Below are positions 15,287 to 37,933 of a stretch of DNA of 47,681 nt, piece after piece. The stretch spans positions 1 through 47,681 of IMG/VR virus record IMGVR_UViG_3300000271_000001. One strand, 5' to 3'. The stretch comes from a virus. Made by a program: the position numbers and the translations under genes. Below the pieces are notes generated by a model, which saw only the letters and a list, made by a program, of their open reading frames with translations, did no database searches and was not told the origin of the DNA. The first letter of the stretch is position 1. The number at the start of each line of letters is the position of its first letter.

Positions 15287-15631
15287 ATGGCAGTTCTGGA
15301 ACTCCCGGTCACGAATGAAACTTCGCACTATTCCTTTCAGGTCGAACTGGAAGGGACGGTTTTTTTCTTCGAATTCTATTACAACACCCGCAGCCAGCTT
15401 TGGATTTTCGACCTGCTTGACCAGTCCGAACTTCCGATCCTGTTCGGACAGCCGGTGATCGGTGGGCAATTGCTGGCAGACGGTTTCATGATCGAAGGTA
15501 TGCCCGCAGGGAAGTTCATCGCAATCGACACGACTGGCGCTGATCGCTCACCCGATCGCCAGACGCTCGGGAACGAAGTGAAATTCTGCTATATCGAATC
15601 GACGACTGTCGCAGAGGTATCGAATGGCTGA
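15287..15631 (+). CDS. hypothetical baseplate-module protein
   Basis: 114-aa ORF in tight operon spacing. Confidence 0.5.
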   Translation: MAVLELPVTNETSHYSFQVELEGTVFFFEFYYNTRSQLWIFDLLDQSELPILFGQPVIGGQLLADGFMIEGMPAGKFIAIDTTGADRSPDRQTLGNEVKFCYIESTTVAEVSNG

Positions 15632-16520
15632 TCTATTCAACCAGGCGCGCAACGCAGGTTTCCCGCAGCCTACCGCGCTCCCCGCTGGTGCGAAGCTTTT
15701 TTTCAGACGCTGCGAACTGCGCATCGTGAACCTTCGCACACGCCAGGAACTCACGATCAAGGATGCAAGGATCAAATTCAATATTGAAAAGCAGGACCAG
15801 GGCGAACCGAACAAGGGCACGATCGAAGTGTTCAACCTTGCCGAGCGCACCAGAAACCTTTTCACGGTTCCACCGGAAATCAAGGAAAACGAAACGATCC
15901 GTGGCCTCTATATTGAGCTGTCCGCAGGATACCGCGACCTGACTCGCGTGATTCACACTGGCGACGCCAGTTCGCAGTCCTATTTCAGTTCCCCCGATTG
16001 GATCACGAAACTGGAAACCCAGGACGGGGGAAGCGCGATCCGAAACAGCGTGTTCAGTCGCAGCTATCGCGCCGGCTTTCCGATGAACCAGGCGATCAGG
16101 GACGTGATCGACAGTTTCGGACTTGCCCGGGGCTATACGATCCCCTCTGTCACGACCGCCAGAATTCAGCAAGGGCTGGCGCTCGGGGGAAAGAGCGCGG
16201 ACACCATGAACCAGTTTGCGAAGGACTTCGGGTTCAAGTGGTCAGTGCAGAACAACACGATCAATACGTGGTTCCCCCGCGGCGTCGTCGGTCCCATTGT
16301 GAACCTGACACCGAACAGCGGTCTGATCGGTTCCCCGATAAAGACCGACAAAGGCGTGAACTTCGACTGCTTTCTGATCCCCCTCATTCAGCCAGGCGTG
16401 ACCGTCCGCATATCGGGCTGTCAGGGCTTTAACGGGGACGTGGTCGTTCAGCGTCAAAAAATTGTCGGCGACGTCGACGGTGGGGACTGGAAAATTCAGA
16501 ACGAGGGGATACAGCCATGA
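15624..16520 (+). CDS. baseplate hub-like protein (gpD / gp44 / XkdQ position)
   Basis: 298 aa immediately upstream of the spike gene. Start and stop overlap the neighbouring genes. Confidence 0.5.
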   Translation: MADLFNQARNAGFPQPTALPAGAKLFFRRCELRIVNLRTRQELTIKDARIKFNIEKQDQGEPNKGTIEVFNLAERTRNLFTVPPEIKENETIRGLYIELSAGYRDLTRVIHTGDASSQSYFSSPDWITKLETQDGGSAIRNSVFSRSYRAGFPMNQAIRDVIDSFGLARGYTIPSVTTARIQQGLALGGKSADTMNQFAKDFGFKWSVQNNTINTWFPRGVVGPIVNLTPNSGLIGSPIKTDKGVNFDCFLIPLIQPGVTVRISGCQGFNGDVVVQRQKIVGDVDGGDWKIQNEGIQP

Positions 16521-17257
16521 GTGGACCGCGTGGAGCGCAGCAAACCCCCACACTGTTCCAGGTGATCGCGGAAGCAATCGAAGCGAAGCTGCGGTCGGTT
16601 TTTACCATGCTTCCGGGGACCGTGGTTTCAGTCGATAAGACGACGGGACTGATCAGCGCTCAGCCCGATTTCAGTTCCCTGTATGCGGACGATCCGAACA
16701 CACCCATCCCGCTCCCTGAAATCCCCGGTATTCCCGTTTATGAGGTTCGGGCTGGTGCAGCCAGGATCAGCGTCCCGGTGAAAAAGGGCGACAAGGTCAC
16801 GCTGATATTTTCCTCGCGGGCACTGGACGACTGGAAGCGCTCGGGAGCGCGCGCAGTCCCCCCGAGTGGTCGAACCCACGCGCTGTCCGATGCAGTCGCG
16901 TTCCCGGGGCTGTATGCGCAGAATGAAGCGCTCCCCTTGACCGACGACCTTTTGATCGAATTCGGCGCTGCGAAAATCAAGCTGGTCCAGGATGAACTCA
17001 TCGAAATGAAAGTCACGAATGCCACGCTGGCGATGAACAAGCAGGGAAAGTTCAAAATCACGAATGGGACGACCGACGTTCTGGTGCAGCTATCCGAAGC
17101 GCTGGGACGCAATATCACTGCGATCGACGAATTCCTGCTTGCGACCTTCGCGACCGCTCTAGGACCGTCTGGAACGATCGTGAACCCCCTTCCCTTCCAG
17201 CAGCTGAAACAGCAAACGACGAAAGCGAAAAAACTGGTCGATCAGCTGATCCTGTGA
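16517..17257 (+). CDS. baseplate central spike (Gp138 N-terminal domain / gpV-like)
   Basis: LPGTVVSVD...PEIPGIPVY...VPVKKGDKVTLIFSSRALDDW...HALSDAVAFPGL matches the OB-fold spike domain pattern. Confidence 0.75.
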   Translation: MSGPRGAQQTPTLFQVIAEAIEAKLRSVFTMLPGTVVSVDKTTGLISAQPDFSSLYADDPNTPIPLPEIPGIPVYEVRAGAARISVPVKKGDKVTLIFSSRALDDWKRSGARAVPPSGRTHALSDAVAFPGLYAQNEALPLTDDLLIEFGAAKIKLVQDELIEMKVTNATLAMNKQGKFKITNGTTDVLVQLSEALGRNITAIDEFLLATFATALGPSGTIVNPLPFQQLKQQTTKAKKLVDQLIL

Positions 17258-17312
17258 CAAAGTGTGCAGAACGACAGACTATGATTCGACGATTCAAAAG
17301 GTCAAATTGACG

Positions 17313-17359
17313 AAGCCCCTGAAACGCTCAAAAACGCGGTTCTGGGGCTTTCATTTTTT
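17313..17359 (+). terminator. intrinsic terminator ending the first late operon
   Basis: A 38-nt hairpin, AAGCCCCTGAAACGC...GCGGTTCTGGGGCTT (13 of 15 positions paired), followed by TCATTTTTT. Confidence 0.7.
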
Positions 17360-17371
17360 CCAGGCGGGAGT

Positions 17372-17692
17372 TTATCGGAAACTGGTCCGATCGGTGATCC
17401 TGGCCCCGGTTTCGCAAACGACGATTCGGGAGGTTCGAAGGGTTCGATACTCGCAGCACCCGAACTCGACCAGTACGGCCGCGCATGCGTCGTGATCGTA
17501 GCTGGTCGGATTGTCGGACCGAAAGCACCGGGCGTCGAAGCTGCGACCTGATGCGAAGCGGTCCACACACACCGCAGCGGGGATCCGTTCGAAGGGAAGC
17601 GGTTCGTCGTCCTGGAATATGGTGCCCGCAGACAAAGCCAGGGAACCGCATAGGACCGAGCACCAGGCCAGAAAACCTAAACCCCTGTCCAT
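17372..17692 (-). CDS. candidate secreted Cys-rich small protein (moron-like)
   Basis: ATG 17692 lies 6-7 nt after GAGGGGGAA. 106 aa with a signal-peptide-like N-terminus (MDRGLGFLAWCSVLCGSLALSAG) and 8 Cys. Its own promoter candidate is upstream, and the gene ends next to the hairpin at 17313-17359. Confidence 0.35.
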   Translation of the reverse strand: MDRGLGFLAWCSVLCGSLALSAGTIFQDDEPLPFERIPAAVCVDRFASGRSFDARCFRSDNPTSYDHDACAAVLVEFGCCEYRTLRTSRIVVCETGARITDRTSFR

Positions 17693-17736
17693 ACCAGCTT
17701 CCCCCTCGCGTTTTTCGCGTTTCTGCAATTCTGTGC

Positions 17737-17766
17737 ATTATGTACGACACGCCATAAAATTCCCAA
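17737..17766 (-). promoter_or_regulatory. candidate sigma70-type promoter (minus strand)
   Basis: Read on the minus strand: TTGGGA (17766-17761), 18-nt spacer, CATAAT (17742-17737). Confidence 0.35.
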
Positions 17767-17868
17767 GCCGAATTTCGTGAACCAGCTGAACAGCAAGCGG
17801 TCTGAACAGAACCCAGGTCGGAAAATTGCAAAAGCAGAAATCCGGGCGCTTCGCGCGGGGGCTTGCCA

Positions 17869-17878
17869 CCCCCCCCCC
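17869..17878 (+). repeat. C10 homopolymer
   Basis: Counted directly. Confidence 0.95.
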
Positions 17879-17914
17879 ATAAAAATCCCGAACCACACAC
17901 GCGCTTGGCTTGGG

Positions 17915-17923
17915 CCCCCCCCC
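17915..17923 (+). repeat. C9 homopolymer
   Basis: Counted directly. It lies 36 nt downstream of the C10 tract. Confidence 0.95.
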
Positions 17924-18415
17924 ACCGCTCTAAAGATGCGCTGCGCTTTTTGAAATCCCCTTCCCTGGAAATCGCGCTAGCGCAAAAAGGCTCGGCTGTT
18001 TCGATCCTGGGGGAAAAACGAGGAACGGCGCGAAGCGGGTTCCGAAGTCCCCAGGAACGGAACAGTGAGCAGACAAGGTCGGAACGAGCGCATGCGGAGC
18101 ATGCCCGAAGTGCAGACCGCGGCAGTGCTGGGGATGGGTGAAAACCTCGGGAAGCTGAACAGCGAAGCGCTTTTTAAGAAACCCGGAACGCCAGAACTGA
18201 CATGATCACGAAAGGTCCCTTGTGAAAAACGCAAACCCTCAACCCCGTGCTGCGAAACGGTTCTATGAAACACGGGGAAACATTCGTGCGCTGAAAAACG
18301 TGATCATAAAACCCCCTTCTGTAAACTCAAAAACCCGCAAACCCTTGAGCCCCAAAGCTTACGCGCAAGGCGATATGTTGACGCCTGTTTATTGGACGAA
18401 AAAAATAATCGCTGA

Positions 18416-18446
18416 AACCCGCACTGGAAGCGGGTTCCAACTTTTT
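18416..18446 (+). terminator. weak terminator-like hairpin
   Basis: AACCCGC (18416-18422) pairs with GCGGGTT (18430-18436) around a 7-nt loop. T5 follows after a 5-nt gap. Confidence 0.3.
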
Positions 18447-18457
18447 AGGGAGCTTTT

Positions 18458-18577
18458 ATGATCACCATGGCGGGCTGTCCCGCGCATGCTGAATCGGCAG
18501 AATTGAAACAGGAGTTGAGAAGTTCACATTTTGCACAGAAAAACCAAGCGTCGCTGAAAAAAACGGGGAGGGGATAA
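18458..18577 (+). CDS. possible 39-aa ORF
   Basis: An AGGGAG RBS (18447-18452) lies 5 nt upstream of ATG 18458. Product is MITMAGCPAHAESAELKQELRSSHFAQKNQASLKKTGRG. No other support. Confidence 0.2.
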   Translation: MITMAGCPAHAESAELKQELRSSHFAQKNQASLKKTGRG

Positions 18578-18584
18578 AGCCCCG
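18557..18584 (-). terminator. minus-strand intrinsic terminator
   Basis: On the minus strand, CGGGG(11-nt loop)CCCCG is followed by T7 (plus-strand A7 at 18557-18563). Confidence 0.4.
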
Positions 18585-18891
18585 AGCGCACAGGCTGATT
18601 ACAAGACTCGCGCATTGATCAATTTCGCAATCGCAAGCGCGGAAAATTCCCAGGCGCGAAACAAGCTGTGCAGCGTTTCGGTCGAATGCGATCGACGCGA
18701 ATTTTGCGATTTCAGTCCGCGAATCTTAACAAAGGGATCAAAAATTCATCAAAAAAGCGATGCGTTTGGGTAATGAAAAAGCTGGCGGGTAGGTCACACT
18801 TGCCTTCGGCCACTTCGAGATACCGGCGGCCGGTAGATTATAAGAAGCGAAACCGTAAAAACATTGGGGCCCAAGGGTTTCAAAATCGAAA

Positions 18892-18931
18892 AGTCATCCT
18901 GGGAATGACTTGAGTCATCCTGGGAATGACT
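18892..18931. promoter_or_regulatory. tandem pair of identical 19-bp palindromic operator-like sites
   Basis: AGTCATCCTGGGAATGACT occurs at 18892-18910 and 18913-18931 (21-bp period). Each site is a 6-bp inverted repeat (AGTCAT/ATGACT) with a 7-bp spacer. Confidence 0.7.
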
Positions 18932-18939
18932 GCGCATAT

Positions 18940-18968
18940 TTGAACCGACGATTTATGGCGCTTTTTAT
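18940..18968 (+). promoter_or_regulatory. candidate rightward promoter of the accessory operon
   Basis: TTGAAC (18940-18945), 17-nt spacer, TTTTAT (18963-18968). It lies 9 nt right of operator copy 2. Confidence 0.35.
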
Positions 18969-19186
18969 GGGTGTTTTTTGACTTGAGAGGCCACAATGCT
19001 ATTGCAAGCCGGCATTGCGTTTGTTCAAACCGCGACAGCTGAACCACAGTATTTCCATGCGCGACAGGATGCACCGCCTAAAAAAAAGCCTGCCAGGAAC
19101 GCGAAGCAGAGTTATCAAACCTTGGGGAGTGTGCTAGTGGAAAGCCGCAGTCACTCGAACCTCGCAAAATCCATGATGGGCAAACG

Positions 19187-19804
19187 ATGCAAAAAAGAGT
19201 CCGCCAAACTTTGAAGCGATGGAATAAAACCGATCATATTCACTGGGCAGTCCGAGCGTATGCCAGCAACGACTTGCTGGGCTATCTGCGTAATTTCTTT
19301 ATGCTCATTAACAATTGGAACAATTCACCTGAAACAGAGGAAACTCTGCGCAGGACCATATTTGCGGACACAGGCGAGGAAAAATGGACGCTGGGAAGTA
19401 TATCGAACGGAATAAATTCGCTCGAAAAGAAATATGGTGAAATCGAGCGTGTAAACGCATATCAGGTAAGGTGGAACCCCGAAATCGTAAACATGGGGGG
19501 ATCACAGATCGTAAGATCAAGCTACGGTGGAACCTCTGTCAAATATAGCGTGCAGGAAACTGCGCTCATAGAAAAGCTTAAGGAAAAATACCAGAGTGAC
19601 TTCATATTCAAAACGAATCACGAAATTAAAGAGGCCATACAGCAACGGGAAGACGAACTTTTCGATCGACTCACAAGCTTAACGGAAATGCTCAAAGCTG
19701 CGCTTGCTCTACTCCCGCCAGCAGACCGGGAAAGACTTATCGCAGAGTACGATTACGACGAACCAGTTTTTGATTTTGATTATAGAACCACACTAAGGAC
19801 ATAA
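19187..19804 (+). CDS. hypothetical protein (orphan)
   Basis: 205-aa ORF in an AT-rich context. No motif recognised. The RBS is weak, so the start is uncertain. Confidence 0.5.
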   Translation: MQKRVRQTLKRWNKTDHIHWAVRAYASNDLLGYLRNFFMLINNWNNSPETEETLRRTIFADTGEEKWTLGSISNGINSLEKKYGEIERVNAYQVRWNPEIVNMGGSQIVRSSYGGTSVKYSVQETALIEKLKEKYQSDFIFKTNHEIKEAIQQREDELFDRLTSLTEMLKAALALLPPADRERLIAEYDYDEPVFDFDYRTTLRT

Positions 19805-19843
19805 TTTCCCAAACGGGAACCTTCAAAAAGGGAGTGAAATTTC

Positions 19844-20002
19844 ATGAAAAAGACGGAGAAGAAAATAGCTCGGAATAGAGAAGATGTTCTGGCCAGCCTG
19901 GACAAGATCACGAACTTTTTGAAAGACTTCACGAATGAGATCCGTGAACAAAAGACACAGATTGCTGTTAAGGGAAAGCCACGTTTGCATGTTGTGAAGT
20001 GA
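19844..20002 (+). CDS. small coiled-coil protein (52 aa)
   Basis: GGGAG RBS, then ATG 19844 and TGA 20000-20002, translated by hand. Preferred over the antisense track ORF at 19823..20011. Confidence 0.45.
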   Translation: MKKTEKKIARNREDVLASLDKITNFLKDFTNEIREQKTQIAVKGKPRLHVVK

Positions 20003-20009
20003 AAAGCGC

Positions 20010-20255
20010 ATGGACGAATTTAAGAACCAATTAAAAGCTGCGAGTCGTAGCAGCAGTACGGATCAACTTACTGAGGGAGTAAGGGAACTCAGGAAACAGG
20101 TCGAAGAACTGCATCAACTGTTTCACCAGTTTTCGCATGAATACGCGAAGTGGAAAAAACCACGCGCAGAGTCGATCGACCATACTCAAGAGCATGAAAA
20201 CCCTAGAACTCACCTGAGTCTGATAAAAGAAGAAAACCCGCCTCAGAAAAATTAA
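20010..20255 (+). CDS. hypothetical coiled-coil protein
   Basis: 81-aa ORF. Confidence 0.5.
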   Translation: MDEFKNQLKAASRSSSTDQLTEGVRELRKQVEELHQLFHQFSHEYAKWKKPRAESIDHTQEHENPRTHLSLIKEENPPQKN

Positions 20256-20282
20256 ATCAAGACTTTACCTGATCTTACCGAA

Positions 20283-20314
20283 AACCCCTGGCATACAAAC
20301 TTTTTCCAGGGGTT
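20283..20314 (+). promoter_or_regulatory. 9-bp perfect hairpin covering the RBS of the next gene
   Basis: AACCCCTGG (20283-20291) pairs with CCAGGGGTT (20306-20314). The 3' arm contains the AGGGG Shine-Dalgarno of ATG 20322. Confidence 0.5.
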
Positions 20315-20321
20315 GAAATTT

Positions 20322-21098
20322 ATGAAGTATTTCGTGCTGGGATCGGTATTTTTTGCCATGCAAGCCTGTGCGACCGTGCTCGACCATGGTCGGAACGAAT
20401 GTCAGGATCCCGAGGAATACTGGGGACAGAAATGGGTGGAAAATTATTCCAAGGATCTTTCCAGTCTGTCCTTAGAGGAATTGCGCAAAATGAACGATAC
20501 AATGGGGAACAAGCAGTCGGTCCTGGTGATCGAACGAATGAAGCGCTGCAGCAATCCCAAGGCGAAAGACATGAGCGAAAGACACCCGACCTTCCTTGTG
20601 AAACTTGACCAGGCTATTCAATCCAAGCAAACCCAGCTTGAACAGGTGCGCGCGGAAAACCTGAAACAGATCGAAGCGGACGAAGCTGCAGAAATGGAAG
20701 CGCAGGAAAGGGAAAAGCAAGCGGTCTGCGACAAGGTCGGTAAGGTGATAAAGAAAAAGGGACTGAAAACAGAATGCGGTTTGACCGTGAACGACATAAT
20801 CACCGGGCTATTGAGGAATTTTGCTTCGGTGAAGGACGTAAAAAACGCAGTCGGTGATATTGGAACCCGCGAATCAGCATGGACCGCTTTCCAGGCTTTC
20901 CCCGACAGGGCTTTGTTCATGAGCGACAGCGGTGTCGTCCTTTTAGTGAAGCGCCAGGGGATCCTGGAAAGCCAGAAACTTTCAGACCTGGGATGCTTCG
21001 TCGCAGAAATGAAGTGCTTCCTGGCGTTCGACGGTGTCACGACCTACCAGACGAACTTCGGATCCAAACAGGCTTTCGTGTTCCGGGTAGTCGAGTGA
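20322..21098 (+). CDS. secreted or lipoprotein-like protein
   Basis: N-terminus MKYFVLGSVFFAMQAC is a signal peptide with a Cys at an imperfect lipobox. There is a central coiled coil. Confidence 0.55.
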   Translation: MKYFVLGSVFFAMQACATVLDHGRNECQDPEEYWGQKWVENYSKDLSSLSLEELRKMNDTMGNKQSVLVIERMKRCSNPKAKDMSERHPTFLVKLDQAIQSKQTQLEQVRAENLKQIEADEAAEMEAQEREKQAVCDKVGKVIKKKGLKTECGLTVNDIITGLLRNFASVKDVKNAVGDIGTRESAWTAFQAFPDRALFMSDSGVVLLVKRQGILESQKLSDLGCFVAEMKCFLAFDGVTTYQTNFGSKQAFVFRVVE

Positions 21099-21123
21099 GC
21101 TGGTCCCGTCTGAATTTTCCCGC

Positions 21124-21152
21124 CTGATAATTTATCAGAAAACTGATATCAG
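21124..21152. promoter_or_regulatory. two adjacent palindromes sharing the half-site CTGATA
   Basis: CTGATAATTTATCAG (21124-21138) and CTGATATCAG (21143-21152). Confidence 0.5.
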
Positions 21153-21199
21153 AATTCCTGGAAGGGCAATCCCAGCCCTTTAGCGGGAGTTTATTCCTC

Positions 21200-21490
21200 A
21201 TGATCGAACTAAATCCAATCTCATTTGCAGCCGGGTATTGTTCCGGTGTCCTGATCACTGGGCTGATCGGCTACCGTTTGGTCTGGAAGCGGTATAGACG
21301 ACTGCGCGACCACGCTGCATACCAGGACATAAAGGTCACTCGAATCTATAGGGACGGTGTTCTGCAAACGCAGACGGTCGAACCCTTGAACCCCTTCGAC
21401 AAGGAAAAGGACGACGGGACGCTTCCGCTCCCTTTGGTTGAGGTTCCACCGGGGACGCGAATGAGCGAAATCCAGGAAAGGAAGCACTAA
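21200..21490 (+). CDS. small membrane protein
   Basis: 96 aa with an N-terminal TM segment (ISFAAGYCSGVLITGLIGYRLVW). GGGAG RBS. Confidence 0.55.
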   Translation: MIELNPISFAAGYCSGVLITGLIGYRLVWKRYRRLRDHAAYQDIKVTRIYRDGVLQTQTVEPLNPFDKEKDDGTLPLPLVEVPPGTRMSEIQERKH

Positions 21491-21684
21491 TGCTTCATTG
21501 TTTCTATTGCGGGGAGCGCGCATCGTTCCTCTGCGATTATCCCGACTGCGATCGTCCTATATGCGCTGGCCATACCAGGCGAATCGGTTTCGTCTGCTAT
21601 CGCGCGAGGAACAAGCGCTTGAGCGACACGGTCGATTGCTGCACAACTCACGACGACTGGAAAGGCGACTATGCAGACCGATGA
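21490..21684 (+). CDS. small Cys-rich (zinc-binding-like) protein
   Basis: 64 aa containing CFYCG...CDYPDCDRPIC...H...CC. TAATG overlap with the upstream gene. Confidence 0.5.
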   Translation: MLHCFYCGERASFLCDYPDCDRPICAGHTRRIGFVCYRARNKRLSDTVDCCTTHDDWKGDYADR

Positions 21685-21895
21685 CCAGGGACCGAAGGTT
21701 CCAAAGCACTATGGTTTTCTTACGCTGGCGACCAGCTGGCTGGCGAACGAAATCGGGAAAAAGATGAACACGCTGGCACGCGACGAAAACGAAGAACGGG
21801 AAGCGCTGATGCAGCTGGAACACGATGTCCTGATCGCGCTGCAAAAATATCAGCAATACTTCGATGAAAAAAAAGGCGACGACACCGATGGCTAA
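21671..21895 (+). CDS. hypothetical protein
   Basis: 74-aa ORF with operon overlap. Confidence 0.45.
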   Translation: MQTDDQGPKVPKHYGFLTLATSWLANEIGKKMNTLARDENEEREALMQLEHDVLIALQKYQQYFDEKKGDDTDG

Positions 21896-22055
21896 AATGC
21901 AAAAATTTCGGTTCCTTTACTGCACGGGCGACGGTGAAGTCGTGAAAGAGGAATTCGAATTCGAGGACGGGACCAGAATGGAAACAGTTCGTCTGGAATT
22001 CCTGGACTGGCTGCAGAAAAAGACCAGCGCGACTTTTTATCCCGTCAACCAATAG
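21888..22055 (+). CDS. hypothetical protein
   Basis: ATG 21888 overlaps the upstream stop by 8 nt. 55 aa. Confidence 0.4.
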   Translation: MAKMQKFRFLYCTGDGEVVKEEFEFEDGTRMETVRLEFLDWLQKKTSATFYPVNQ

Positions 22056-22071
22056 TCATTGGGGGAATCGA

Positions 22072-22335
22072 ATGAAAAAGAACGAATCGCAGAAAATGAT
22101 CACAATGCCTTACCAGGAATACCTGGACGACCTTGAAGCTGTACGAGCTGAAGTATATGAACAGCGCATAGCCCCGATCAGGGAGCTGATCGAAGTCGGG
22201 GTCAGCTTGCATAAGACGATCGACAGGATGCCACACGTTTTCTGGAAGTTCGAAGGGACCAAGGAAAAGCTTATGGAACAACTCTGCGAAATTCTCGATA
22301 TGCCCACCGTGGACGAAATGCGCAAGGGTTTATAA
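22072..22335 (+). CDS. hypothetical protein
   Basis: 87-aa ORF. Confidence 0.5.
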   Translation: MKKNESQKMITMPYQEYLDDLEAVRAEVYEQRIAPIRELIEVGVSLHKTIDRMPHVFWKFEGTKEKLMEQLCEILDMPTVDEMRKGL

Positions 22336-22352
22336 AGGGGGAAACAGGTGTT

Positions 22353-22676
22353 ATGCAGCGAATTCAATTTCTGAACCCATGGGGGACGATCGCCTTTTCC
22401 GACATGCAAATGCGCAAGCTGATCGGGTTCGGTGCTCCGATCATGAACGGTTCGGAATTCATCGGGTGGAACGTGAGCGCAAACCCCTGCCAGCTCGACT
22501 TTTCAGTGTGGCTTTCCTTCGTCCCCGACGTTTACCGCGATCAGTGCATGGACATTTGCAGACGTGTCGCTCAGGAATTTCACTATCGAATGATCAAGGA
22601 TCAAACCCATGAGGAAATCATAGTCGCAGTGCAGCGGCGAATCTGGCGCGAAGTCGAACCCGTCGCTGTCGAATAG
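22353..22676 (+). CDS. hypothetical protein
   Basis: 107-aa ORF. Confidence 0.5.
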   Translation: MQRIQFLNPWGTIAFSDMQMRKLIGFGAPIMNGSEFIGWNVSANPCQLDFSVWLSFVPDVYRDQCMDICRRVAQEFHYRMIKDQTHEEIIVAVQRRIWREVEPVAVE

Positions 22677-22743
22677 ATTTCTGGTTATGATGATTAGTAA
22701 GTTTCACCCCGGTAAACGCACTGAATATAAAGGAGCGCACGAC

Positions 22744-22962
22744 ATGAGCGACAAGCCTAAAACCTACGATCCGAAAAAAGCGCGCGTGGTGATCGGGGGG
22801 GAGGAAGTCGAACCCTTTGAAGGAACGATTATGGGGACATGGAAAACCGATCAGCAAACCGACCATGGAAAAATTCATGCAGAAACTATAGAAAGGAAAT
22901 GCGAGTGCGGAAAGGCTGAGTGCGAACACTGTTCGACTCCAGGATCATACCGGAAAGGATAA
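22744..22962 (+). CDS. small Cys-containing protein
   Basis: AAAGGAG RBS before ATG 22744. 72 aa with a C-terminal CECGKAECEHC motif. Confidence 0.45.
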   Translation: MSDKPKTYDPKKARVVIGGEEVEPFEGTIMGTWKTDQQTDHGKIHAETIERKCECGKAECEHCSTPGSYRKG

Positions 22963-22965
22963 GAG

Positions 22966-23385
22966 ATGTATTTTAACGCGACCAGAACCGATCGGGTTCC
23001 GGGTGTGATATACCCGACAAACCGCTGTTTCGACGATGCAGTTGAAATTGCGATGAAACTGGTCGCACGGTTTCCAGTTCATGGCATGCTCAGTCGAATC
23101 AGAATCGTCCACGGTTTGCTTACCATGCCTATGGAAAGCGAGGTTTTCGCGCATGCCTGGGTTCTGCTTGATCGTGACAAGGTGATTCAGCGCGGGATTA
23201 AGGACGACATGGTAATCGAATACGCCTTGACCGTCGATGAATTCAGGGACCTTTACAAACCCGCTCACTGTATCCAATATAGCCTGAAAGAAATCAGGGG
23301 ACTGATTCAGCGGAATAAGAACTGCGGTCCTTTTAACCGAAGGTTCTGGAACCATGTGAACTGGAACGGGGGAAAGCCTGAGTGA
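22966..23385 (+). CDS. hypothetical protein with a Cys...His arrangement (possible papain-like fold)
   Basis: 139 aa with NRCFDDAVE, then FAHAWVLLD and further His/Asn residues. The fold idea is speculative. Confidence 0.4.
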   Translation: MYFNATRTDRVPGVIYPTNRCFDDAVEIAMKLVARFPVHGMLSRIRIVHGLLTMPMESEVFAHAWVLLDRDKVIQRGIKDDMVIEYALTVDEFRDLYKPAHCIQYSLKEIRGLIQRNKNCGPFNRRFWNHVNWNGGKPE

Positions 23386-23648
23386 AACAAAAGCTAGTTC
23401 GGTATGCAGCTGCATTTTTATTTTTCAACGCATTGCTTGCAGGTGTCGGGATTTTTCTGAACCTGACCAGCACTGGCGACAGCGAACGCAATATGCTGCC
23501 GCTTGATAAGACGTTCTGTGTCGAAATCTGCCTTAAGGAACTGCAGGAACGCGCTGTCTTTCCTGACTTTCACGAAGCTGTCAAACGCTGCGATTTTATG
23601 TTTGGGGGAACCGATACGTGCGAGCTGTCGAGTCAGCGGGTGAAGTAA
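23382..23648 (+). CDS. small membrane or secreted protein
   Basis: GTGA overlap start. N-terminal hydrophobic segment AAAFLFFNALLAGVGIFLNL. Confidence 0.45.
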   Translation: MKQKLVRYAAAFLFFNALLAGVGIFLNLTSTGDSERNMLPLDKTFCVEICLKELQERAVFPDFHEAVKRCDFMFGGTDTCELSSQRVK

Positions 23649-23933
23649 AAAAAGTGTTCCATGTGAAACTATTTTTGACTTTCGTCAATCTGATTTTGCT
23701 TCCAGCTGCAATTCTGCTTGGGGCTTTGAAAGGTTTCGGGGTGATAAGCGCGAACCTTGTCGAGCTATGGACAGGTCGTGTGGGCAAGTGATCGGACAAA
23801 GCTTTTTGCTGACACTCGGAGTCGTCCCCTTGATCACTTCCCGCCATGGCTGCGGAATTCCTCGAACCCCCACACGACCTGCAATTCCATGATAAGCTGT
23901 CCACGTTGCGATATCCAATAGCAGAGGTATGAA

Positions 23934-24239
23934 ATGAAAGAATGGCTCTTAGGTCTTATCGTGCGTTTCATCGTCGAACAGATCCGCAACGGTGGAATTG
24001 AATCGCTTGCGGAAAAGCTGCAGGCGATTGTAATCCCCACTGTTCGCAAGTATAAAGACGAAATTTTTGATCGTCTGAAAGCCGAAGCTGCAGCGGACGG
24101 TGATCCGAACGGATTGAACGATTCAGTCGTCGAAGCACTGGACCTTTTTTTCGACGCGCTGATCCCGAACTGTTCACAATGCCTGGCCAGTGTGTCAAAA
24201 TCAGAAAATCAGCAAAGCGAAAATCTGGCGGTGAGCTAG
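23934..24239 (+). CDS. hypothetical protein
   Basis: 101-aa ORF with an AGAGG RBS. It is the last gene before two terminators. Confidence 0.5.
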   Translation: MKEWLLGLIVRFIVEQIRNGGIESLAEKLQAIVIPTVRKYKDEIFDRLKAEAAADGDPNGLNDSVVEALDLFFDALIPNCSQCLASVSKSENQQSENLAVS

Positions 24240-24256
24240 AGGGAAAAGCAAGGGGG

Positions 24257-24290
24257 ACCGGGACGCGCACACGTTTCCGGTTTTTTTCTT
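24257..24290 (+). terminator. intrinsic terminator
   Basis: ACCGGGA (24257-24263) pairs with TTCCGGT (24275-24281), followed by T7CTTTT. Confidence 0.65.
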
Positions 24291-24393
24291 TTGCCCGCTG
24301 CGTCTGACTTCCAGCCTGGCGACATGATAAGATCGTGCTATGCCATAACGGGCGACGCGCTCAGAATTTCGAGGACAGTCAGTCGTAAGCGGG

Positions 24394-24425
24394 GCCCCGG
24401 GATCTTTCCCAGGGGCTCTTTTTTT
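24394..24425 (+). terminator. intrinsic terminator (second of a tandem pair)
   Basis: GCCCCGGGA pairs with TCCC(A)GGGGC around a TCTT loop, followed by TCTTTTTTT. Confidence 0.65.
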
Positions 24426-24700
24426 ATGCACCGATCACCTTCCATGGCGCAATTAAACCGAGCTACGTTTTATTTGATAACTTCGATTTTCATTCCATGT
24501 CACATTGACTAAAAGATTGCGAAACGACCTTTATGCAATTTGATCGAATCATTCAGTCGGCACCGATCACGCCTCGCCGCGGACGAGCTCTAACGAGGCG
24601 AGGCATCGAGGCGAAAATCTCGAGCGCGCGCGGCGAACTCACTCTCGAAGTTTCCAAACGAATCGGGCAAGCTTGACGAAAATTCGGGGGAGCGCAAACC

Positions 24701-25237
24701 ATGGTCCTGGCAAACGCTGCAGCCTGGCAAACTGCCTGGGCTACTGTTCCAAACGTCGCTGACAATAGCTGGAAAGCAAACCTTGCGAACAAGGTCGATA
24801 GCCTGGTCACGAATCTATTGACGACGAACGGTTTGTTCAAGGCACCAGCGACGCCGGCGCTGACTTTCACTTTTGCAAAATCGACATTTCAAAGCGCGCT
24901 CACCGATAACAAACCCGCGACACTGGCGAATGCTTTCGAATCTGCTATCCTCGCATCGACCTATGTCGTTCCCATAAACTCTTTCATCGGCACCGACACA
25001 CCTGCGACAAAGTTCAGCGTCGTCGCATCCTGCGTCGTCGATCCCGCGAGTGTCGCACTGGCGAAAGCGAAGTTCCTCGAAATCTTAGGCCTCACACCTG
25101 TTTCAGCTGCGAATCAGTCCCAGTTTCCGGTAAAACTGAGGGAAGCTTTTTTATTACTGACAGTGACGACGACGGGAACCAATTCAGTAGCGCCGACACC
25201 GTCGCCTTTAACCGATGCAGGGAGGGCTTTACAGTGA
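24701..25237 (+). CDS. hypothetical baseplate-module protein
   Basis: 178 aa with a GGGGGAG RBS. It is the first gene of the second late operon. Confidence 0.5.
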   Translation: MVLANAAAWQTAWATVPNVADNSWKANLANKVDSLVTNLLTTNGLFKAPATPALTFTFAKSTFQSALTDNKPATLANAFESAILASTYVVPINSFIGTDTPATKFSVVASCVVDPASVALAKAKFLEILGLTPVSAANQSQFPVKLREAFLLLTVTTTGTNSVAPTPSPLTDAGRALQ

Positions 25238-25626
25238 ATTTCCTACTGGACGACACCGGGGATCTAGCGTTCGAAAATAACAACTGGGTTATGGCAGACG
25301 GAGTCGATGAAATAAAGCAAATTTGCAAATGCAATTTGCAGTCGGTCGCTGGCGAATGGTTTCTGGACACAACTCAGGGGCTCCCGTACTTCGAAGAAAT
25401 CTTCGAAAAACAGTCCGACGTTCAGCGTGTGAATTCCATATTCATAAACGAGCTGAAAAAAGTGCCTGGAATTATCTCGATAATTCGCTTCGAAACTACC
25501 CTTGATTCTGTCACGCGCGAATTGACAGTAAGCTTTGAAGCGCGGACCGCTTCGGGTATCCTGACTTTTAACGACCAGCTGGTTCCAACGGGTGACGTAT
25601 CTGAAAATCAGATTTCGGGAGCATAA
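25234..25626 (+). CDS. baseplate wedge protein (W/gp25/XkdS-like)
   Basis: 130 aa. The pattern GVDEIKQICKCNLQSVAGEWFLDTTQGLPYFEEIF is typical of the small baseplate protein preceding J. Confidence 0.6.
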   Translation: MNFLLDDTGDLAFENNNWVMADGVDEIKQICKCNLQSVAGEWFLDTTQGLPYFEEIFEKQSDVQRVNSIFINELKKVPGIISIIRFETTLDSVTRELTVSFEARTASGILTFNDQLVPTGDVSENQISGA

Positions 25627-25632
25627 AAAAAG

Positions 25633-27498
25633 ATGCCTACGTATGGACTTACTGAACAAGGCTTGAAAATCAAGCGACTCGCGGACGTGAAAGATGAACT
25701 CGAAAACGACTTTAGGGGGACCTATGGAGCTGGTGTCGATGTCGATGCGCGCAGGCCGATCGGGCAATTTATCGGGATTTTCTCGGAACGCGAATCGTTA
25801 TTCTGGGAACTCCTGCAGCAAATTTATTTGCAGCGTTATCCCGATTACGCGGAAGGGGTTCAATTCGACGAAGTCGCAAAATTTGCGAACCTTACCCGCC
25901 TCGGTGCGACCTATAGCAAGGTCGCTGTCCGAGCGTTCGGAACACTGGCGACGATCATTCCAGCGGGATCATTCATTTCAGTCGAAGGAAACGCCGAAGC
26001 ACGATTCGCAACGGACGCCGAAATTACGATTGGCGCTGGCCAGAACTCAAAGCAGCGAATTTCTTTCGCAAGCCTTCCAAGTTCAGGCGCGTTTACCCTT
26101 GTATATGATGGGACTGCGACGGGAAGCATAGCGGGAGCGACCGTCGATCCAGCCGCAATCAAGTCTGCGCTGGAAGCTTTGGCAGATATCGACGAAGTCA
26201 CGGTCACGGATTCGACACTGGACGCAGGATCAGCACTGGCGTTCGATATCGAATTCATTGGTGACAATGCAGAGTCAGCGCAGCCCCTGCTTGAAATCGG
26301 AGCGAACACCCTCGCAGCGCAAACCAAGTATCGCGTGACCACGGTCGCGGACGTGGCCAGTTCCCTGAATAACAAATATTTCATATTTGCCTATGGGAAT
26401 AACCTGACAGCTGGCGTCTGGTTTAACGTCGGGGGAGCGGGTGTCGTGCCCGCTGGTGCGCTCGCTCAGGACACCCAGATCGCAGTCGCTATATCGGTGA
26501 ACGCGACAGCTGGTGCCGTGGCGACCGCGCTGCAAGCTGCATTGGCTGCACAGACGCTGATCGTCGATACAGCTGCGGTCGAAAATACGAATGAAGTCGC
26601 GTTCAGCATAGTCGAGGAAATCGACGTTTCGGATATTCAGGCTGCGAACACCGGGTTCACGGTGGAAGTCGATCAAGTCGGTGAGGACGTGGGGAACCTT
26701 GTTCCCGCGATCACCGAGGAACAGGAAGGGCTGTCCCCCTATGGGGACGGGACTGCGACAGCCGTCGAAGCGGGGGAAGTTCAAGCGCCAGCGGGATCCC
26801 TGACAGTGATCGAAACAACGGTTTCGGGCTGGGACAGCGTGACCAATACCCTGGACGCTGAAGTCGGCCGCGAAATAGAAACGACCGCAGAATTCAAACT
26901 GCGTCGGAAAGAGGAAATCGGTTCGACCGGTCGCGCGACGAAAAATGCGATCAAGGCTGCATTGCTGCAAGTCGAGGACGTGGAAGACGCAGTGGTCTAT
27001 TCGAATCGGACGCTGGTCACGGACGGGGACGGGGTTCCTGGGAAATCGGTCCGGGCGGTCGTGCTCGGGGGATCGAACCAGGACATAGGGGAAACGCTGT
27101 TCGACTCGGTCGCAGCGGGGATCGGCTTTTTCGGATCCCAGACGGTGAACGTGATCGACGACGACGGGTTCACCCAGCCCGTGGCTTTCGACCTTGCATC
27201 CGAAATCGACATTTATGTCGAAGTGGACCTGCTTGTCACGACCGCGTTTCCCCAGAACGGTGTCGCACTGGTGCGCGCAGCAATCCTGGGATATGGCGAA
27301 TCGCTCACCATGGGCGACAGCGTGATCGTGTTCCCGTATCTGGTCGGCTCTTTCGGAGCTGTCGCAGGGATAACCGGTGTCACGATCCGCATAGGCACCG
27401 CAGCGAACCCCACGCTGGACGACAATATCTCTATCGCAGCTGATGAAATCGCACGGTTCGATTCTGGTCGCATCGAAATCAATACGACGATCGTGTAA
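25633..27498 (+). CDS. baseplate J-like protein with a large central insertion
   Basis: 621 aa. The N-terminus (YGLTEQGLKIKRLADVKDELENDFRGTYG) and the C-terminal part are J-like. The middle ~250 aa are rich in Ala, Thr, Val and Gly. Confidence 0.7.
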   Translation: MPTYGLTEQGLKIKRLADVKDELENDFRGTYGAGVDVDARRPIGQFIGIFSERESLFWELLQQIYLQRYPDYAEGVQFDEVAKFANLTRLGATYSKVAVRAFGTLATIIPAGSFISVEGNAEARFATDAEITIGAGQNSKQRISFASLPSSGAFTLVYDGTATGSIAGATVDPAAIKSALEALADIDEVTVTDSTLDAGSALAFDIEFIGDNAESAQPLLEIGANTLAAQTKYRVTTVADVASSLNNKYFIFAYGNNLTAGVWFNVGGAGVVPAGALAQDTQIAVAISVNATAGAVATALQAALAAQTLIVDTAAVENTNEVAFSIVEEIDVSDIQAANTGFTVEVDQVGEDVGNLVPAITEEQEGLSPYGDGTATAVEAGEVQAPAGSLTVIETTVSGWDSVTNTLDAEVGREIETTAEFKLRRKEEIGSTGRATKNAIKAALLQVEDVEDAVVYSNRTLVTDGDGVPGKSVRAVVLGGSNQDIGETLFDSVAAGIGFFGSQTVNVIDDDGFTQPVAFDLASEIDIYVEVDLLVTTAFPQNGVALVRAAILGYGESLTMGDSVIVFPYLVGSFGAVAGITGVTIRIGTAANPTLDDNISIAADEIARFDSGRIEINTTIV

Positions 27499-28803: not shown

Positions 28804-29304
28804 ATGGCATCGCTGATCGAACGCATTGTCGCGCACGTCCTCAAAATAGGACCGAAAGCAAACACGAATGATCTAGGGCTGATTTTTGATAATGGAAACG
28901 GATCACCGCCTGGTTTCAAGGTCGAAGCATCAACGAATATCCTTAAGTTTTCATCGGGGGGAAACCCTTACCAGGCGTTCCCTTCGGATCCGGTCGTCGA
29001 AACGGTCACGGGCACGAAAGCCATGGGAGCGGGGGATAACAAAAAGATTTTGTTATGCGACTGCACGTCGGCCTTGGTTATTATCGACGTTCCCGATCCT
29101 GCGGTCGTCGGCTCGGGCTATAGCTTCGTGGCTGTCGATAAGAAAATGAACGCAAGCTTGACGAACTATATTCGGCTGCAGCGAAACGGATCCGAAAAGA
29201 TCGGTGAAGTCGCTGCAGACTTTTATTTGTATGAAGCTGGCGGGTTCGTCGAAGTGGTCACAGACGGAACAGACTGGTTTATTTTGCGCAGGGGGAATTG
29301 CTGA
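28804..29304 (+). CDS. hypothetical fibre-module protein
   Basis: 166-aa ORF. The stop overlaps the next start (TGATG). Confidence 0.5.
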   Translation: MASLIERIVAHVLKIGPKANTNDLGLIFDNGNGSPPGFKVEASTNILKFSSGGNPYQAFPSDPVVETVTGTKAMGAGDNKKILLCDCTSALVIIDVPDPAVVGSGYSFVAVDKKMNASLTNYIRLQRNGSEKIGEVAADFYLYEAGGFVEVVTDGTDWFILRRGNC

Positions 29305-30641: not shown

Positions 30642-30669
30642 TTTGAACTCAAACTATAAAGAGCACCGC

Positions 30670-37917: not shown

Positions 37918-37933
37918 GGTCCGTTCCCTTTCG

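What the first reader, a model, noticed from the sequence alone, without database searches (positions are those of the whole stretch)
17258..24700. A 7.4-kb insulated accessory island splits the baseplate genes between spike and wedge
In Mu/P2/PBSX-type contractile-tail modules the spike gene (here 16517-17257) is normally followed directly by the W/gp25-like, J-like and I-like genes (here from 25234, after one orphan at 24701). In this genome 7.4 kb sits between them. The insert is bounded by an intrinsic terminator on the left (17313-17359) and two tandem terminators on the right (24257-24290 and 24394-24425), and it has its own operator/promoter region (18892-18968). It contains a 1.9-kb ORF-poor stretch plus about 16 small ORFs, none of which looks structural. 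Part of it is much more AT-rich than the backbone: my hand counts of single 60-nt lines gave 21/60 G+C at 19561-19620 versus 37/60 at 10561-10620. An autonomous cassette inside a virion-assembly operon is unusual, and such a site is a natural place for defence, anti-defence or exclusion cargo.
Basis: partly seen in the sequence, partly recalled or inferred. Interest (0 to 1): 0.75.

Follow-up and report, generated by a model that had tools for sequence, protein, structure and literature searches.

The report
Prophage attachment site splits baseplate genes
The 7.4-kb insert between the tail-spike and baseplate genes is real, and it holds the site where this virus joins its bacterial host's chromosome, together with a swappable control region and small orphan genes; no integration enzyme could be found anywhere in the viral genome, so the virus may borrow a host one.

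Summary
7.4 kb (17258-24700) lies between the spike and the next baseplate genes. In two distant lineages (L005/L006, L007) spike, p178 and wedge are adjacent. The terminators, tandem palindromes, low-G+C stretch and small ORFs are all present. p178 is a conserved module gene, not an orphan.

The island contains the phage attachment site. attP is at 18372-18398 (identity core 18384-18396). I recovered attL, attR and empty attB sites. The host is an Oligoflexus species. The window is a complete circular genome of about 47.6 kb, so in the lysogen hub and spike lie at one prophage end and p178/wedge/J near the other.

Left of attP is 1.1 kb of constrained non-coding DNA that is not a globally structured RNA. 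Right of attP are a terminator, an operator-plus-regulator cassette with two unrelated alleles, and about 14 orphan genes under purifying selection.

No integrase was detected. attB is a 27-bp, single-copy, low-G+C site with an 11-6-11 layout, nearly invariant across six Oligoflexus lineages. attP copies one arm plus the centre. A second phage (L047) carries the same core elsewhere in its genome. Integration by a host Xer-like recombinase is my leading inference (about 0.45), but it is unproven: attB does not match classical dif, and its position relative to the terminus could not be tested.

The parts
16517..17257 (+). Baseplate spike gene (left flank of the island)
   Evidence: Pfam PF18352 (Gp138-type N domain), E 9e-21. 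Homologues in L005-L007 are followed directly by p178.
17312..17359 (+). Intrinsic terminator after the spike gene
   Evidence: Hairpin of -21.4 kcal/mol (z -2.9) followed by a U-run. Invariant in five relatives.
17360..18371 (.). Conserved non-coding DNA abutting attP on its left (the right end of the prophage)
   Evidence: No codon periodicity and stops in all frames. Candidate ORFs have pN/pS 1.1-2.2 and broken frames. No Rfam or tRNA hit. No Pfam hit on translated pieces. Divergence is 0.114 and 0.071 per site against synonymous rates of 0.18-0.31 in the neighbouring genes. Mean folding z-score is only -0.3 to -0.6.
17988..18074 (+). Long conserved hairpin inside the non-coding stretch
   Evidence: -46.1 kcal/mol, z -6.4. 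Compensatory changes at three pairs among five sequences (alignment columns 735-816).
18372..18398 (.). attP: GATATGTTGA | CGCCTG | TTTATTGGACG. The core shared with attB is 18384-18396 (CCTGTTTATTGGA).
   Evidence: The phage arms swap at this point in attL (L004/L042) and attR (L001/L011). Empty attB sites are present in L014, L015, L016 and L043-L046.
18411..18441 (-). Hairpin terminator just right of attP, strong on the minus strand and weaker on the plus strand
   Evidence: Minus strand -21.0 kcal/mol, z -5.1; plus strand -12.4. The stem is kept with a different sequence in L012, L013 and L010.
18892..18931 (.). Tandem palindromic operator-like repeats (AGTCATCCTGGGAATGACT, two copies)
   Evidence: They are replaced by a different tandem palindrome (ACAACTCCTGAAAAGTTGT, two copies) in L004 and L010.
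18745..20245 (+). Swappable regulatory cassette: operators plus i72, i205, i52 and i81
   Evidence: Homology between the window and L004 stops at 18744 and resumes at 20245. The type A and type B first genes are unrelated. i205 has pN/pS 0.03.
20322..21098 (+). i261, a protein with an N-terminal signal or lipoprotein-like peptide
   Evidence: Translation read directly. pN/pS about 0.2. No family match.
21200..24239 (+). Eleven small orphan genes (i96, i64, i74, i63, i87, i107, i91, i139, i88, i57, i101); several have hydrophobic N-termini or Cys-rich motifs
   Evidence: pN/pS 0.0-0.5, mostly below 0.3. No family match for the nine ORFs scanned; i57 and i63 were scanned against Pfam only, and i87 had a single weak Pfam hit at E 0.09. 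No PDB match for i139. No phage match for i64 or i139. i63 and i87 are absent from L004.
24248..24294 (+). First right-hand intrinsic terminator
   Evidence: -19.8 kcal/mol, z -2.9. 100% identical with its flanks in four phages.
24391..24426 (+). Second right-hand intrinsic terminator
   Evidence: -22.3 kcal/mol, z -2.7. The hairpin is kept through sequence changes.
24701..25237 (+). p178, a conserved baseplate-module gene (right flank of the island), not an orphan
   Evidence: Homologues of 39-52% identity lie directly after the spike in L005, L006 and L007. pN/pS 0.0-0.22.

Best explanation
The island is the integration and regulatory module of a temperate, E217/XM1/Pam3-like myophage of Oligoflexus. 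In this lineage it sits between the spike gene and p178.

Shown:
- The circular 47.6-kb genome recombines with the host chromosome at attP (18372-18398), at a 27-bp intergenic host site about 150-250 nt upstream of the cca gene.
- In the lysogen the tail and baseplate genes are therefore physically separated. Head, tail, hub, spike and 1.1 kb of non-coding DNA form the right end of the prophage. The operator cassette, the small genes and p178/wedge/J start from the left end.
- The island is bounded by terminators. It carries an operator-plus-regulator cassette that exists as two unrelated alleles, followed by orphan genes under purifying selection.

Inferred:
- The cassette acts as an immunity-like or autoregulated control unit.
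- The small genes, several of them membrane or secreted proteins, are lysogeny-expressed or early accessory genes.
- Because no integrase, recombinase or transposase can be found in the complete genome, strand exchange is probably catalysed by a host tyrosine recombinase of the Xer type acting on a dif-like host site that attP half-mimics, as in IMEX elements. I put this last step at about 0.45.
- The crossover maps to CCTG|T, at the border between the 6-bp centre and the conserved right arm.
- The role of the constrained 1.1-kb non-coding arm is unexplained.
For: Integration.
- attP, attL and attR align with arm swapping at a common core.
- Host DNA lies on both sides of the prophage: cca and more than 5 kb beyond it on the left, and Big_5/LamG, OmpA, HEAT and other chromosomal genes on the right in a 127.8-kb contig.
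- The empty attB equals host-left plus core plus host-right in L014, L016, L015 and L043-L046.
- The host is Oligoflexus.
- The genome is complete and circular, with an 82-bp terminal repeat, and the lysogen's prophage has the same length.

Insertion. Spike and p178 are adjacent in L005/L006 and in L007.

Regulatory cassette. Two operator types travel with two unrelated first genes.

Real genes. pN/pS is mostly below 0.3.

No integrase.
- Pfam, PHROG and NCBIfam scans of the called genes found none.
- A Pfam scan of every stop-free segment of 95 aa or more, on both strands, at 1-6.5 kb, 17-24.9 kb and 35.6-47.7 kb, plus translated pieces of the non-coding arm, also found none.
- The only large unknown protein, p358, models at pLDDT 92. 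It has no recombinase fold and resembles ERF/Rad52-type annealing proteins.

dif-like target.
- The 27-mer GATCAAAATA|CACCTG|TATATTGGATG is nearly invariant in six lineages whose cca proteins are 60-82% identical, while the flanking DNA drifts.
- It is single-copy per locus, 33% G+C, and has dyad arms around a 6-bp centre. That is the architecture of dif (PMC5357621), and these are the criteria used to recognise the atypical Legionella dif from the element LME-1 (PMC9765430).
- attP keeps the right arm (9/11) and the centre (5/6) but not the left arm (4/10), as in TLC-phi and the gonococcal island (PMC5357621).
- attL retains 25 of 27 positions of the host site.
- A second, different phage (L047) has the exact 13-bp core plus the same right arm in its early-gene intergenic region, with no integrase family hit in 21 kb.
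Against: - attB does not match classical XerCD dif. The Bdellovibrio dif is TCTTCTGATAAGTTATATTATGTAACGG (PMC2731167), and the conserved XerD arm TTATGTTAAAT is absent from attB.
- Proximity to the replication terminus could not be shown. GC skew within 10 kb on either side is flat and noisy. The apparent mid-contig position in O. tunisiensis means little, because that sequence is a scaffold of 19 contigs with an arbitrary start (PMC5154148).
- No Xer-type gene lies within about 8 kb of attB, and no XafT-like activator was found.
- Inverted arms around a short centre are common to all tyrosine-recombinase sites, so the architecture alone does not separate dif from an ordinary attB.
- Failing to find an integrase with profile searches does not prove that none exists. 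Many phage proteins here are orphans.
- Integration of L047 was not observed; only its sequence motif was.
- Nothing is known about expression of the island genes.
Confidence: 0.7

Rival explanations
1. Integration is catalysed by an unrecognised phage-encoded recombinase of a new family, one of the orphan proteins. In that case the island is an ordinary attP module whose integrase cannot be seen by sequence or lies far from attP.
For: - Many proteins in this genome have no family match.
- Temperate tailed phages normally encode their own integrase (established knowledge).
- The attB architecture fits any tyrosine-recombinase site.
- attB does not match classical dif.
Against: - No protein of 170 aa or more remains that is unexplained, conserved and near attP. 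The genes next to attP are either structural (spike) or part of a cassette that is replaced by unrelated genes in relatives integrated at the same site.
- p358, the only large unknown, has an annealing-protein-like fold.
- The Pfam sweep of all stop-free segments was negative.
- L047 shares the att core, yet only the Gam and annealing-protein genes near its site are shared with the window; its neighbouring 448-aa gene has no counterpart.
Confidence: 0.3
2. The island is essentially a defence, anti-defence or exclusion cargo island. On this view attP lies in it only because non-essential regions tend to collect there.
For: - It has its own operators and terminators and a stretch of lower G+C.
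- The cargo varies among close relatives.
- Several proteins have signal-like or hydrophobic N-termini, as many exclusion proteins do (read directly from the translations).
Against: - No island ORF matches any family. PADLOC was not run.
- The most conserved features of the island are the att site, the non-coding arm and the terminators, not a particular cargo gene.
- This reading is compatible with the best explanation rather than opposed to it.
Confidence: 0.15
3. The 1.1-1.7-kb ORF-free stretch encodes a large structured non-coding RNA, comparable to GOLLD or ROOL, or an RNA that takes part in recombination. On this view it is the functional heart of the island.
For: - It is constrained relative to synonymous sites.
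- One long hairpin has z -6.4 and compensatory changes.
- It abuts attP, and no integrase was found.
Against: - No Rfam family matches, even at E up to 5.
- The mean folding z-score over 160-nt windows is -0.3 (plus strand) and -0.6 (minus strand), so only local hairpins stand out.
- The consensus fold of five sequences has a positive (unfavourable) covariation term, with as many broken pairs as compensated ones.
- The recurring motif GAAGCGGGTTCC is not conserved in relatives.
Confidence: 0.1
4. The island borders are assembly joins, so the contig is chimeric.
For: Two IMG/VR contigs of relatives break close to the island.
Against: - The same continuous island occurs in five or more independent assemblies from different projects.
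- The contig breaks are explained by the prophage-host junction and by strain variation.
- The attL, attR, attB and attP sequences are mutually consistent.
Confidence: 0.01

Closest known systems
IMEXs (integrative mobile elements exploiting Xer): CTX-phi, VGJ-phi and TLC-phi, the gonococcal genetic island, and dif-type double-jelly-roll and microvirus prophages
   Same: - No element-encoded integrase.
- attP copies one arm and the centre of a conserved host site of about 28 bp with an 11-6-11 layout.
- One junction (attL) keeps a nearly intact host site.
- A variable regulator gene lies next to attP, much as rstR does in CTX-type phages (PMC5357621, PMC12715192).
   Different: - This is a 47.6-kb contractile-tailed phage. 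None of the papers I found mentions a tailed-phage IMEX.
- The host site does not match classical dif.
- No XafT-like activator was found.
- Neither a terminus location nor dependence on Xer has been shown.
LME-1 and the XerL/dif system of Legionella (PMC9765430)
   Same: The att site of an integrase-less, phage-like element is a conserved, intergenic, low-G+C host sequence of about 30 bp, with dyad arms that match no known Xer-binding motif. In that case the site turned out to be an atypical dif served by a single recombinase.
   Different: In Legionella the site was shown by whole-genome GC skew to lie at the terminus, and XerL was shown genetically to be necessary and sufficient. Neither is available here. 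Also, the Oligoflexus site always neighbours cca, whereas the Legionella site has variable neighbours.
Classical attP/int modules of temperate tailed phages (lambda, P2, L5), with adjacent non-essential 'moron' genes
   Same: - The prophage map is a circular permutation of the vegetative map, cut at attP.
- A short core is common to attP and attB.
- Terminator-bounded, low-G+C accessory genes lie next to att.
   Different: - There is no integrase or excisionase next to attP, or anywhere else in the genome.
- attP lies inside the baseplate gene set, so integration separates hub and spike from wedge and J.
- 1.1 kb of constrained non-coding DNA forms one arm.
Heteroimmune immunity-region alleles of lambdoid and P2-like phages
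   Same: Operators and the adjacent regulator gene are exchanged together as a cassette between otherwise 87-96% identical genomes.
   Different: No repressor-type fold or HTH has been demonstrated for i72, i205 or the type B 221-aa protein. A separate divergent switch region exists at about 39.7 kb, so this cassette may control only the island operon.

Membership tests
Site-specific integrating prophage (attP/attB system) | attP, attB, attL and attR share a common core, with reciprocal exchange of the arms | tested here: met
   The core is CCTGT(T/A)TATTGGA. The empty attB equals host-left plus core plus host-right.
Site-specific integrating prophage (attP/attB system) | An element-encoded integrase (tyrosine or serine recombinase), usually next to attP | tested here: not met
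   No recombinase family was found in any called gene, or in any stop-free segment of 95 aa or more in the regions swept. p358 does not have a recombinase fold.
IMEX (integrative mobile element exploiting Xer) | The element lacks its own integrase | tested here: met
   As in the row above, within the limits of profile and fold searches.
IMEX (integrative mobile element exploiting Xer) | attP mimics the host site: one binding arm and the central region are conserved and the other arm is divergent | tested here: met
   Right arm 9/11, centre 5/6, left arm 4/10. L047's candidate attP shows the same pattern.
IMEX (integrative mobile element exploiting Xer) | The target is the chromosomal dif: a single-copy, conserved site of about 28 bp with two dyad arms and a 6-8-bp centre | tested here: met
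   The 27-mer is nearly invariant in six Oligoflexus lineages, occurs once per locus, is intergenic and has 33% G+C. These features are necessary for dif but not sufficient to prove it.
IMEX (integrative mobile element exploiting Xer) | The target matches the known XerC/XerD-binding consensus | tested here: not met
   There is no match to the XerD arm TTATGTTAAAT or to the Bdellovibrio dif (PMC2731167). The arms look more like the single-recombinase sites difH and difSL (PMC5357621).
IMEX (integrative mobile element exploiting Xer) | The target lies at the replication terminus (GC-skew inflection) | tested here: inconclusive
   GC skew within 10 kb on either side is flat. Whole chromosomes could not be read. 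The O. tunisiensis scaffold has an arbitrary start.
IMEX (integrative mobile element exploiting Xer) | Recombination depends on host Xer recombinases | not testable with these tools
   This needs genetics or in vitro recombination assays.
Moron or accessory (defence/exclusion) island | Its own promoter or operator and terminator, atypical composition, and cargo that varies between close relatives | tested here: met
Moron or accessory (defence/exclusion) island | Cargo recognisable as a defence, anti-defence or exclusion family | tested here: not met
   No Pfam, PHROG or NCBIfam match. No PDB match for i205 or i139 and no phage match for i64 or i139.
Large structured non-coding RNA (GOLLD, ROOL and similar) | A match to a curated RNA family, or strong thermodynamic and covariation support for a global fold | tested here: not met
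   Rfam searches were negative. The mean z-score is about -0.3 to -0.6. The covariation term of the consensus fold is unfavourable. Only one long hairpin is supported.

The most novel reading that the evidence does not exclude
This is the first contractile-tailed phage that behaves as an IMEX. It carries no integrase and integrates and excises through a host Xer-type recombinase, at an unconventional dif site of Oligoflexia that has not been described. Its half-site mimic sits inside the baseplate gene cluster, beside a 1.1-kb constrained non-coding arm. A related phage (L047) exploits the same host site from a different position in its genome. As happened with LME-1 in Legionella, the phage's att site would then reveal the chromosome-dimer-resolution system of a poorly known bacterial class.
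Probability: 0.35. Interest if true: 0.8.

Novelty: new variant of a known kind. Interest (0 to 1): 0.62.

Why it matters
If a 47-kb tailed phage can lysogenise without its own integrase, by mimicking half of a conserved host recombination site, three things follow.

1. Host-recombinase hijacking would extend from small filamentous, micro- and jelly-roll viruses to Caudoviricetes.
2. Prophage finders and lifestyle predictors that rely on integrase genes would be missing temperate tailed phages.
3. The 27-bp site would be a concrete candidate for the still-unknown dif of Oligoflexia.

Two points are useful even if that inference fails. An attachment site that cuts the baseplate gene set in two is an unusual prophage layout, and the constrained 1.1-kb non-coding arm has no explanation. 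The result also shows that 'accessory islands' inside virion operons should be checked for att sites before they are read as defence cargo.

Tried and rejected
1. Hidden gene in the ORF-free stretch (stop-codon recoding, frameshifted gene or decayed integrase). Rejected: stops of all three types in all frames, no codon periodicity, indels against relatives that break the frame, pN/pS of 1.1-2.2, and no Pfam hit on translated pieces.

2. Giant structured RNA, or any known RNA family, tRNA or tmRNA at the att site. Rejected.

3. Arm-type binding sites (GAAGCGGGTTCC). Enrichment is marginal, the copies lie inside hairpin stems, and they are not conserved in relatives.

4. GCATGC palindromes. Three or four copies against 0.4 expected, too few to interpret.

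5. Mu-like transposition, prompted by the Gam-like gene. Rejected: the same host site and a shared core are found in independent lysogens, and empty sites exist.

6. An integrase spanning the window ends. Rejected: the 82-bp terminal repeat shows the contig is circular, and only the small terminase gene crosses the junction.

7. p358 as a new recombinase. Rejected: its fold is ERF/Rad52-like.

8. A recombinase gene next to attB in the host. None within about 8 kb.

9. An XafT-like Xer activator among the small ORFs. None found.

10. Terminus location from GC skew or from the position in the O. tunisiensis contig. Inconclusive, and the position clue is discounted.

11. Other elements at the same site in IMG/VR. 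Only chance 17-mer matches apart from the known lysogen.

13. i64 as an Ogr/Delta-like late activator. There was only a weak Pfam hit somewhere in the sweep (E 0.009), and i64 has no phage homologue, so this is unresolved.

Full report
**What the window is.** The window is a complete, circularly assembled phage genome. Its two ends share an 82-bp direct repeat, and only the small-terminase gene crosses the junction. Pfam and PHROG place it among the E217/XM1/Pam3-like contractile-tailed phages. The tail genes run in this order:
- tape measure, 12789-14510
- Dit-like protein, 14517-15281
- Pam3-gp18-type plug, 15287-15631
- E217-gp41-type hub, 15624-16520
- spike with a Gp138-type N domain, 16517-17257
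- then, after the island, p178 (24701-25237), sheath initiator/wedge (25234-25626), a J-like protein (25633-27498) and a DUF2612 baseplate protein

No deposited phage is close at the DNA level.

**Checking the observation.** The insertion is real.
- In two independent distant lineages, L005/L006 (40-52% identity) and L007 (36-41%), the order is hub, spike, p178 homologue, wedge, J, with no insert. p178 is therefore part of the module, not an orphan.
- The island is present and continuous in at least five independent assemblies, so it is not a chimera.
- All three terminators fold as stable hairpins followed by U-runs. The right-hand pair is strongly conserved.
- The element at 18892-18931 is two exact copies of a 19-nt palindrome.
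- G+C falls to 0.44-0.45 at 19.0-20.5 kb.
- 17258-18995 is non-coding. It lacks codon periodicity, has stops of every type in every frame, and the small ORFs that gene callers placed there have pN/pS of 1.1-2.2 with frames broken in relatives.
- The downstream small ORFs are real genes, with pN/pS mostly 0.02-0.3.

**What it is: the attachment site.** One relative of the spike gene lies on a 127.8-kb contig (L011). There, the spike and the non-coding stretch are followed by large chromosomal genes (Big_5/LamG, OmpA, HEAT repeats). Another contig of the same phage (L004/L042) starts with a bacterial cca gene and more than 5 kb of further host genes, and then runs into the island from window position 18381 onwards.

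Aligning the junctions gives the classical pattern:
- attP = phage-left + CCTGTTTATTGGA + phage-right
- attR = phage-left + core + host
- attL = host + core + phage-right

Unoccupied sites with host-left + core + host-right are present in Oligoflexus MAGs, in O. tunisiensis and in four metagenomic Oligoflexus contigs. The phage is therefore temperate, its host is an Oligoflexus species, and its attP is at 18372-18398. In the lysogen, hub and spike sit at the right end of the prophage, and p178, wedge and J sit about 6 kb from the left end.

**Anatomy around attP.**
- Left of attP lies 1.0 kb of non-coding DNA that evolves at roughly a third to a half of the synonymous rate of the neighbouring genes in the two most diverged comparisons (L001, L013). 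It is not a globally structured RNA: the mean folding z-score is -0.3 to -0.6 and the covariation term of the consensus fold is unfavourable. One long hairpin, 17988-18074, is very stable (z -6.4) and shows compensatory changes. Nothing matches in Rfam.
- Right of attP is a hairpin that is a strong terminator on the minus strand (z -5.1), followed by 0.45 kb of spacer and then the tandem palindromes.
- From 18745 to 20245 the window and the lysogen differ completely. Type A phages (window, L012, L013) have AGTCATCCTGGGAATGACT twice, with i72 and i205. Type B phages (L004, L010) have ACAACTCCTGAAAAGTTGT twice, with an unrelated 221-aa protein. That it works this way is inference.
- The remaining genes, i261 to i101, are orphans. 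None matches a family in Pfam, PHROGs or NCBIfam, and those checked have no PDB or phage match. Several have signal-like or hydrophobic N-termini.

**The missing integrase.**
- No tyrosine or serine recombinase, DDE, DEDD or HUH enzyme was found in any called gene.
- None was found in a Pfam sweep of every stop-free segment of 95 aa or more, on both strands, in the regions not otherwise covered. That sweep included translated pieces of the non-coding arm, so the arm is not a decayed integrase gene.
- The genome is complete, and the lysogen's prophage has the same length, so nothing is missing.
- The one large unknown protein, p358, belongs to a very large family. It models at pLDDT 92, matches no recombinase fold in the PDB, and weakly resembles ERF/Rad52-type annealing proteins. 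That fits its position beside a Gam-like gene.
- No recombinase gene lies within about 8 kb of attB in the host.

**How integration most likely works (inference).** The host site is GATCAAAATA|CACCTG|TATATTGGATG. It is 27 bp long, 33% G+C, intergenic and single-copy per locus. It is nearly invariant in six Oligoflexus lineages whose cca proteins are only 60-82% identical, while the surrounding DNA drifts. The host therefore conserves it for its own reasons.

Two imperfectly symmetrical arms of about 10-11 bp around a 6-bp centre is the layout of chromosome-dimer-resolution (dif) sites (PMC5357621). The same set of properties was used to recognise the atypical Legionella dif from the att site of the integrase-less element LME-1 (PMC9765430).

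attP (GATATGTTGA|CGCCTG|TTTATTGGACG) keeps the right arm (9/11) and the centre (5/6) but not the left arm (4/10). This is the asymmetry described for TLC-phi and the gonococcal island (PMC5357621). The polymorphic second base of the centre travels with the left arms in both attL and attR, which places the effective crossover within CCTG|T, at the border of the conserved arm. attL retains 25 of 27 positions of the host site.

A different phage of the L005 clade, L047, carries the exact 13-bp core and the same right arm (TCCCTG|TATATTGGACG). It sits in the intergenic region of the early-gene switch, not in the tail cluster, and no integrase family hit occurs within 21 kb. An exact 13-mer is expected about 0.002 times in the DNA searched.

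Together these observations favour a host Xer-type recombinase acting on a dif-like site, that is, IMEX behaviour. The IMEXs in the papers I found are filamentous phages, satellites, genomic islands, microviruses and double-jelly-roll phages (PMC5357621, PMC12715192, PMC3091885); none of these papers mentions a tailed phage.

**Why this is not proven.**
- The site does not match classical XerCD dif; the Bdellovibrio dif is of the classical type (PMC2731167).
- Local GC skew is uninformative.
- The mid-contig position of the site in O. tunisiensis means little, because that sequence is a 19-contig scaffold (PMC5154148).
- Inverted arms are common to all tyrosine-recombinase sites.
- A new family of phage-encoded recombinase cannot be excluded.
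- Integration of L047 was not observed.

I put the host-recombinase step at about 0.45, an unrecognised phage enzyme at about 0.3, and the remainder on other routes, such as a recombinase supplied in trans by another element.

**Verdict.** It misses the main point, which is that the island is where the prophage opens and closes. It is best described as an attP-centred integration and regulatory module inserted into the baseplate gene set of a temperate Oligoflexus myophage, with no detectable integrase and an unexplained, constrained 1.1-kb non-coding arm. This is a new variant of known kinds (attP modules, IMEXs). The integrase-less, dif-like reading is the part worth testing experimentally.

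Noticed in passing
L047:8793-8809 (minus strand), in the 840-nt intergenic region L047:8539-9380: A different phage (SSAP 61% identical, in the clade of the island-less L005) carries the exact host core CCTGTATATTGGA with the same right arm as the window's attP. The site lies between divergent early genes, and no integrase family hit occurs in the 21 kb held. This suggests that a second phage uses the same host site from a different position in its genome.
   Followed up: partly
window 1-82 and 47600-47681: An 82-bp terminal direct repeat shows that the contig is a circular assembly of about 47.6 kb. The small-terminase gene spans the junction.
   Followed up: yes
window 37609-38431 (minus strand): A HigB-like toxin (Gp49/DUF891, E 2e-24). 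The Pfam sweep also gave HTH_37/Xre-type hits on an unidentified segment, probably the adjacent antitoxin. The pair lies beside the divergent switch region at about 39.7 kb.
   Followed up: partly
window 29298-32738: An RCC1-repeat protein (447 aa) followed by two family-9 glycosyltransferase (heptosyltransferase-like) genes, all inside the tail-fibre region. This is unusual cargo for a tail module and might modify host LPS.
   Followed up: no
window 4338-4856: A Lar-like restriction-alleviation domain (TIGR03655 at E 1e-6, which is below its curated cut-off; Pfam Lar_restr_allev at E 1e-6) in a gene embedded among the head-morphogenesis genes.
   Followed up: no
whole window: GATC occurs 434 times (9.1 per kb), about 2.3 times the 1/256 expectation. 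The phage encodes a C5 cytosine methyltransferase (36531-37667) next to a ParB-like nuclease-domain protein (35909-36589).
   Followed up: no
window 17379-17402 versus 17231-17254: A degenerate copy (75% identity) of the last 24 nt of the spike gene lies 148 nt downstream of it, just after the terminator. It may be a scar of the event that placed the island there.
   Followed up: no
window 18378-18406: Promoter-like hexamers straddle the att core: TTGACG on the left arm and AAAAAT on the right arm, with a 17-nt spacer (9/12 match to consensus). Integration would split them. The match is weak and was not evaluated further.
   Followed up: no
window 33857-34858: A 333-aa protein with collagen triple-helix repeats, downstream of an SLT-domain transglycosylase (33319-33837). 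It is probably a fibre.
   Followed up: no
window 21490-21684 (i64) and 22687-22962 (i91): Two small Cys-rich island proteins that could be zinc fingers. The Pfam sweep gave a weak Ogr/Delta zinc-finger hit (E 0.009) on an unidentified segment, so an island-encoded late-gene activator cannot be excluded.
   Followed up: partly
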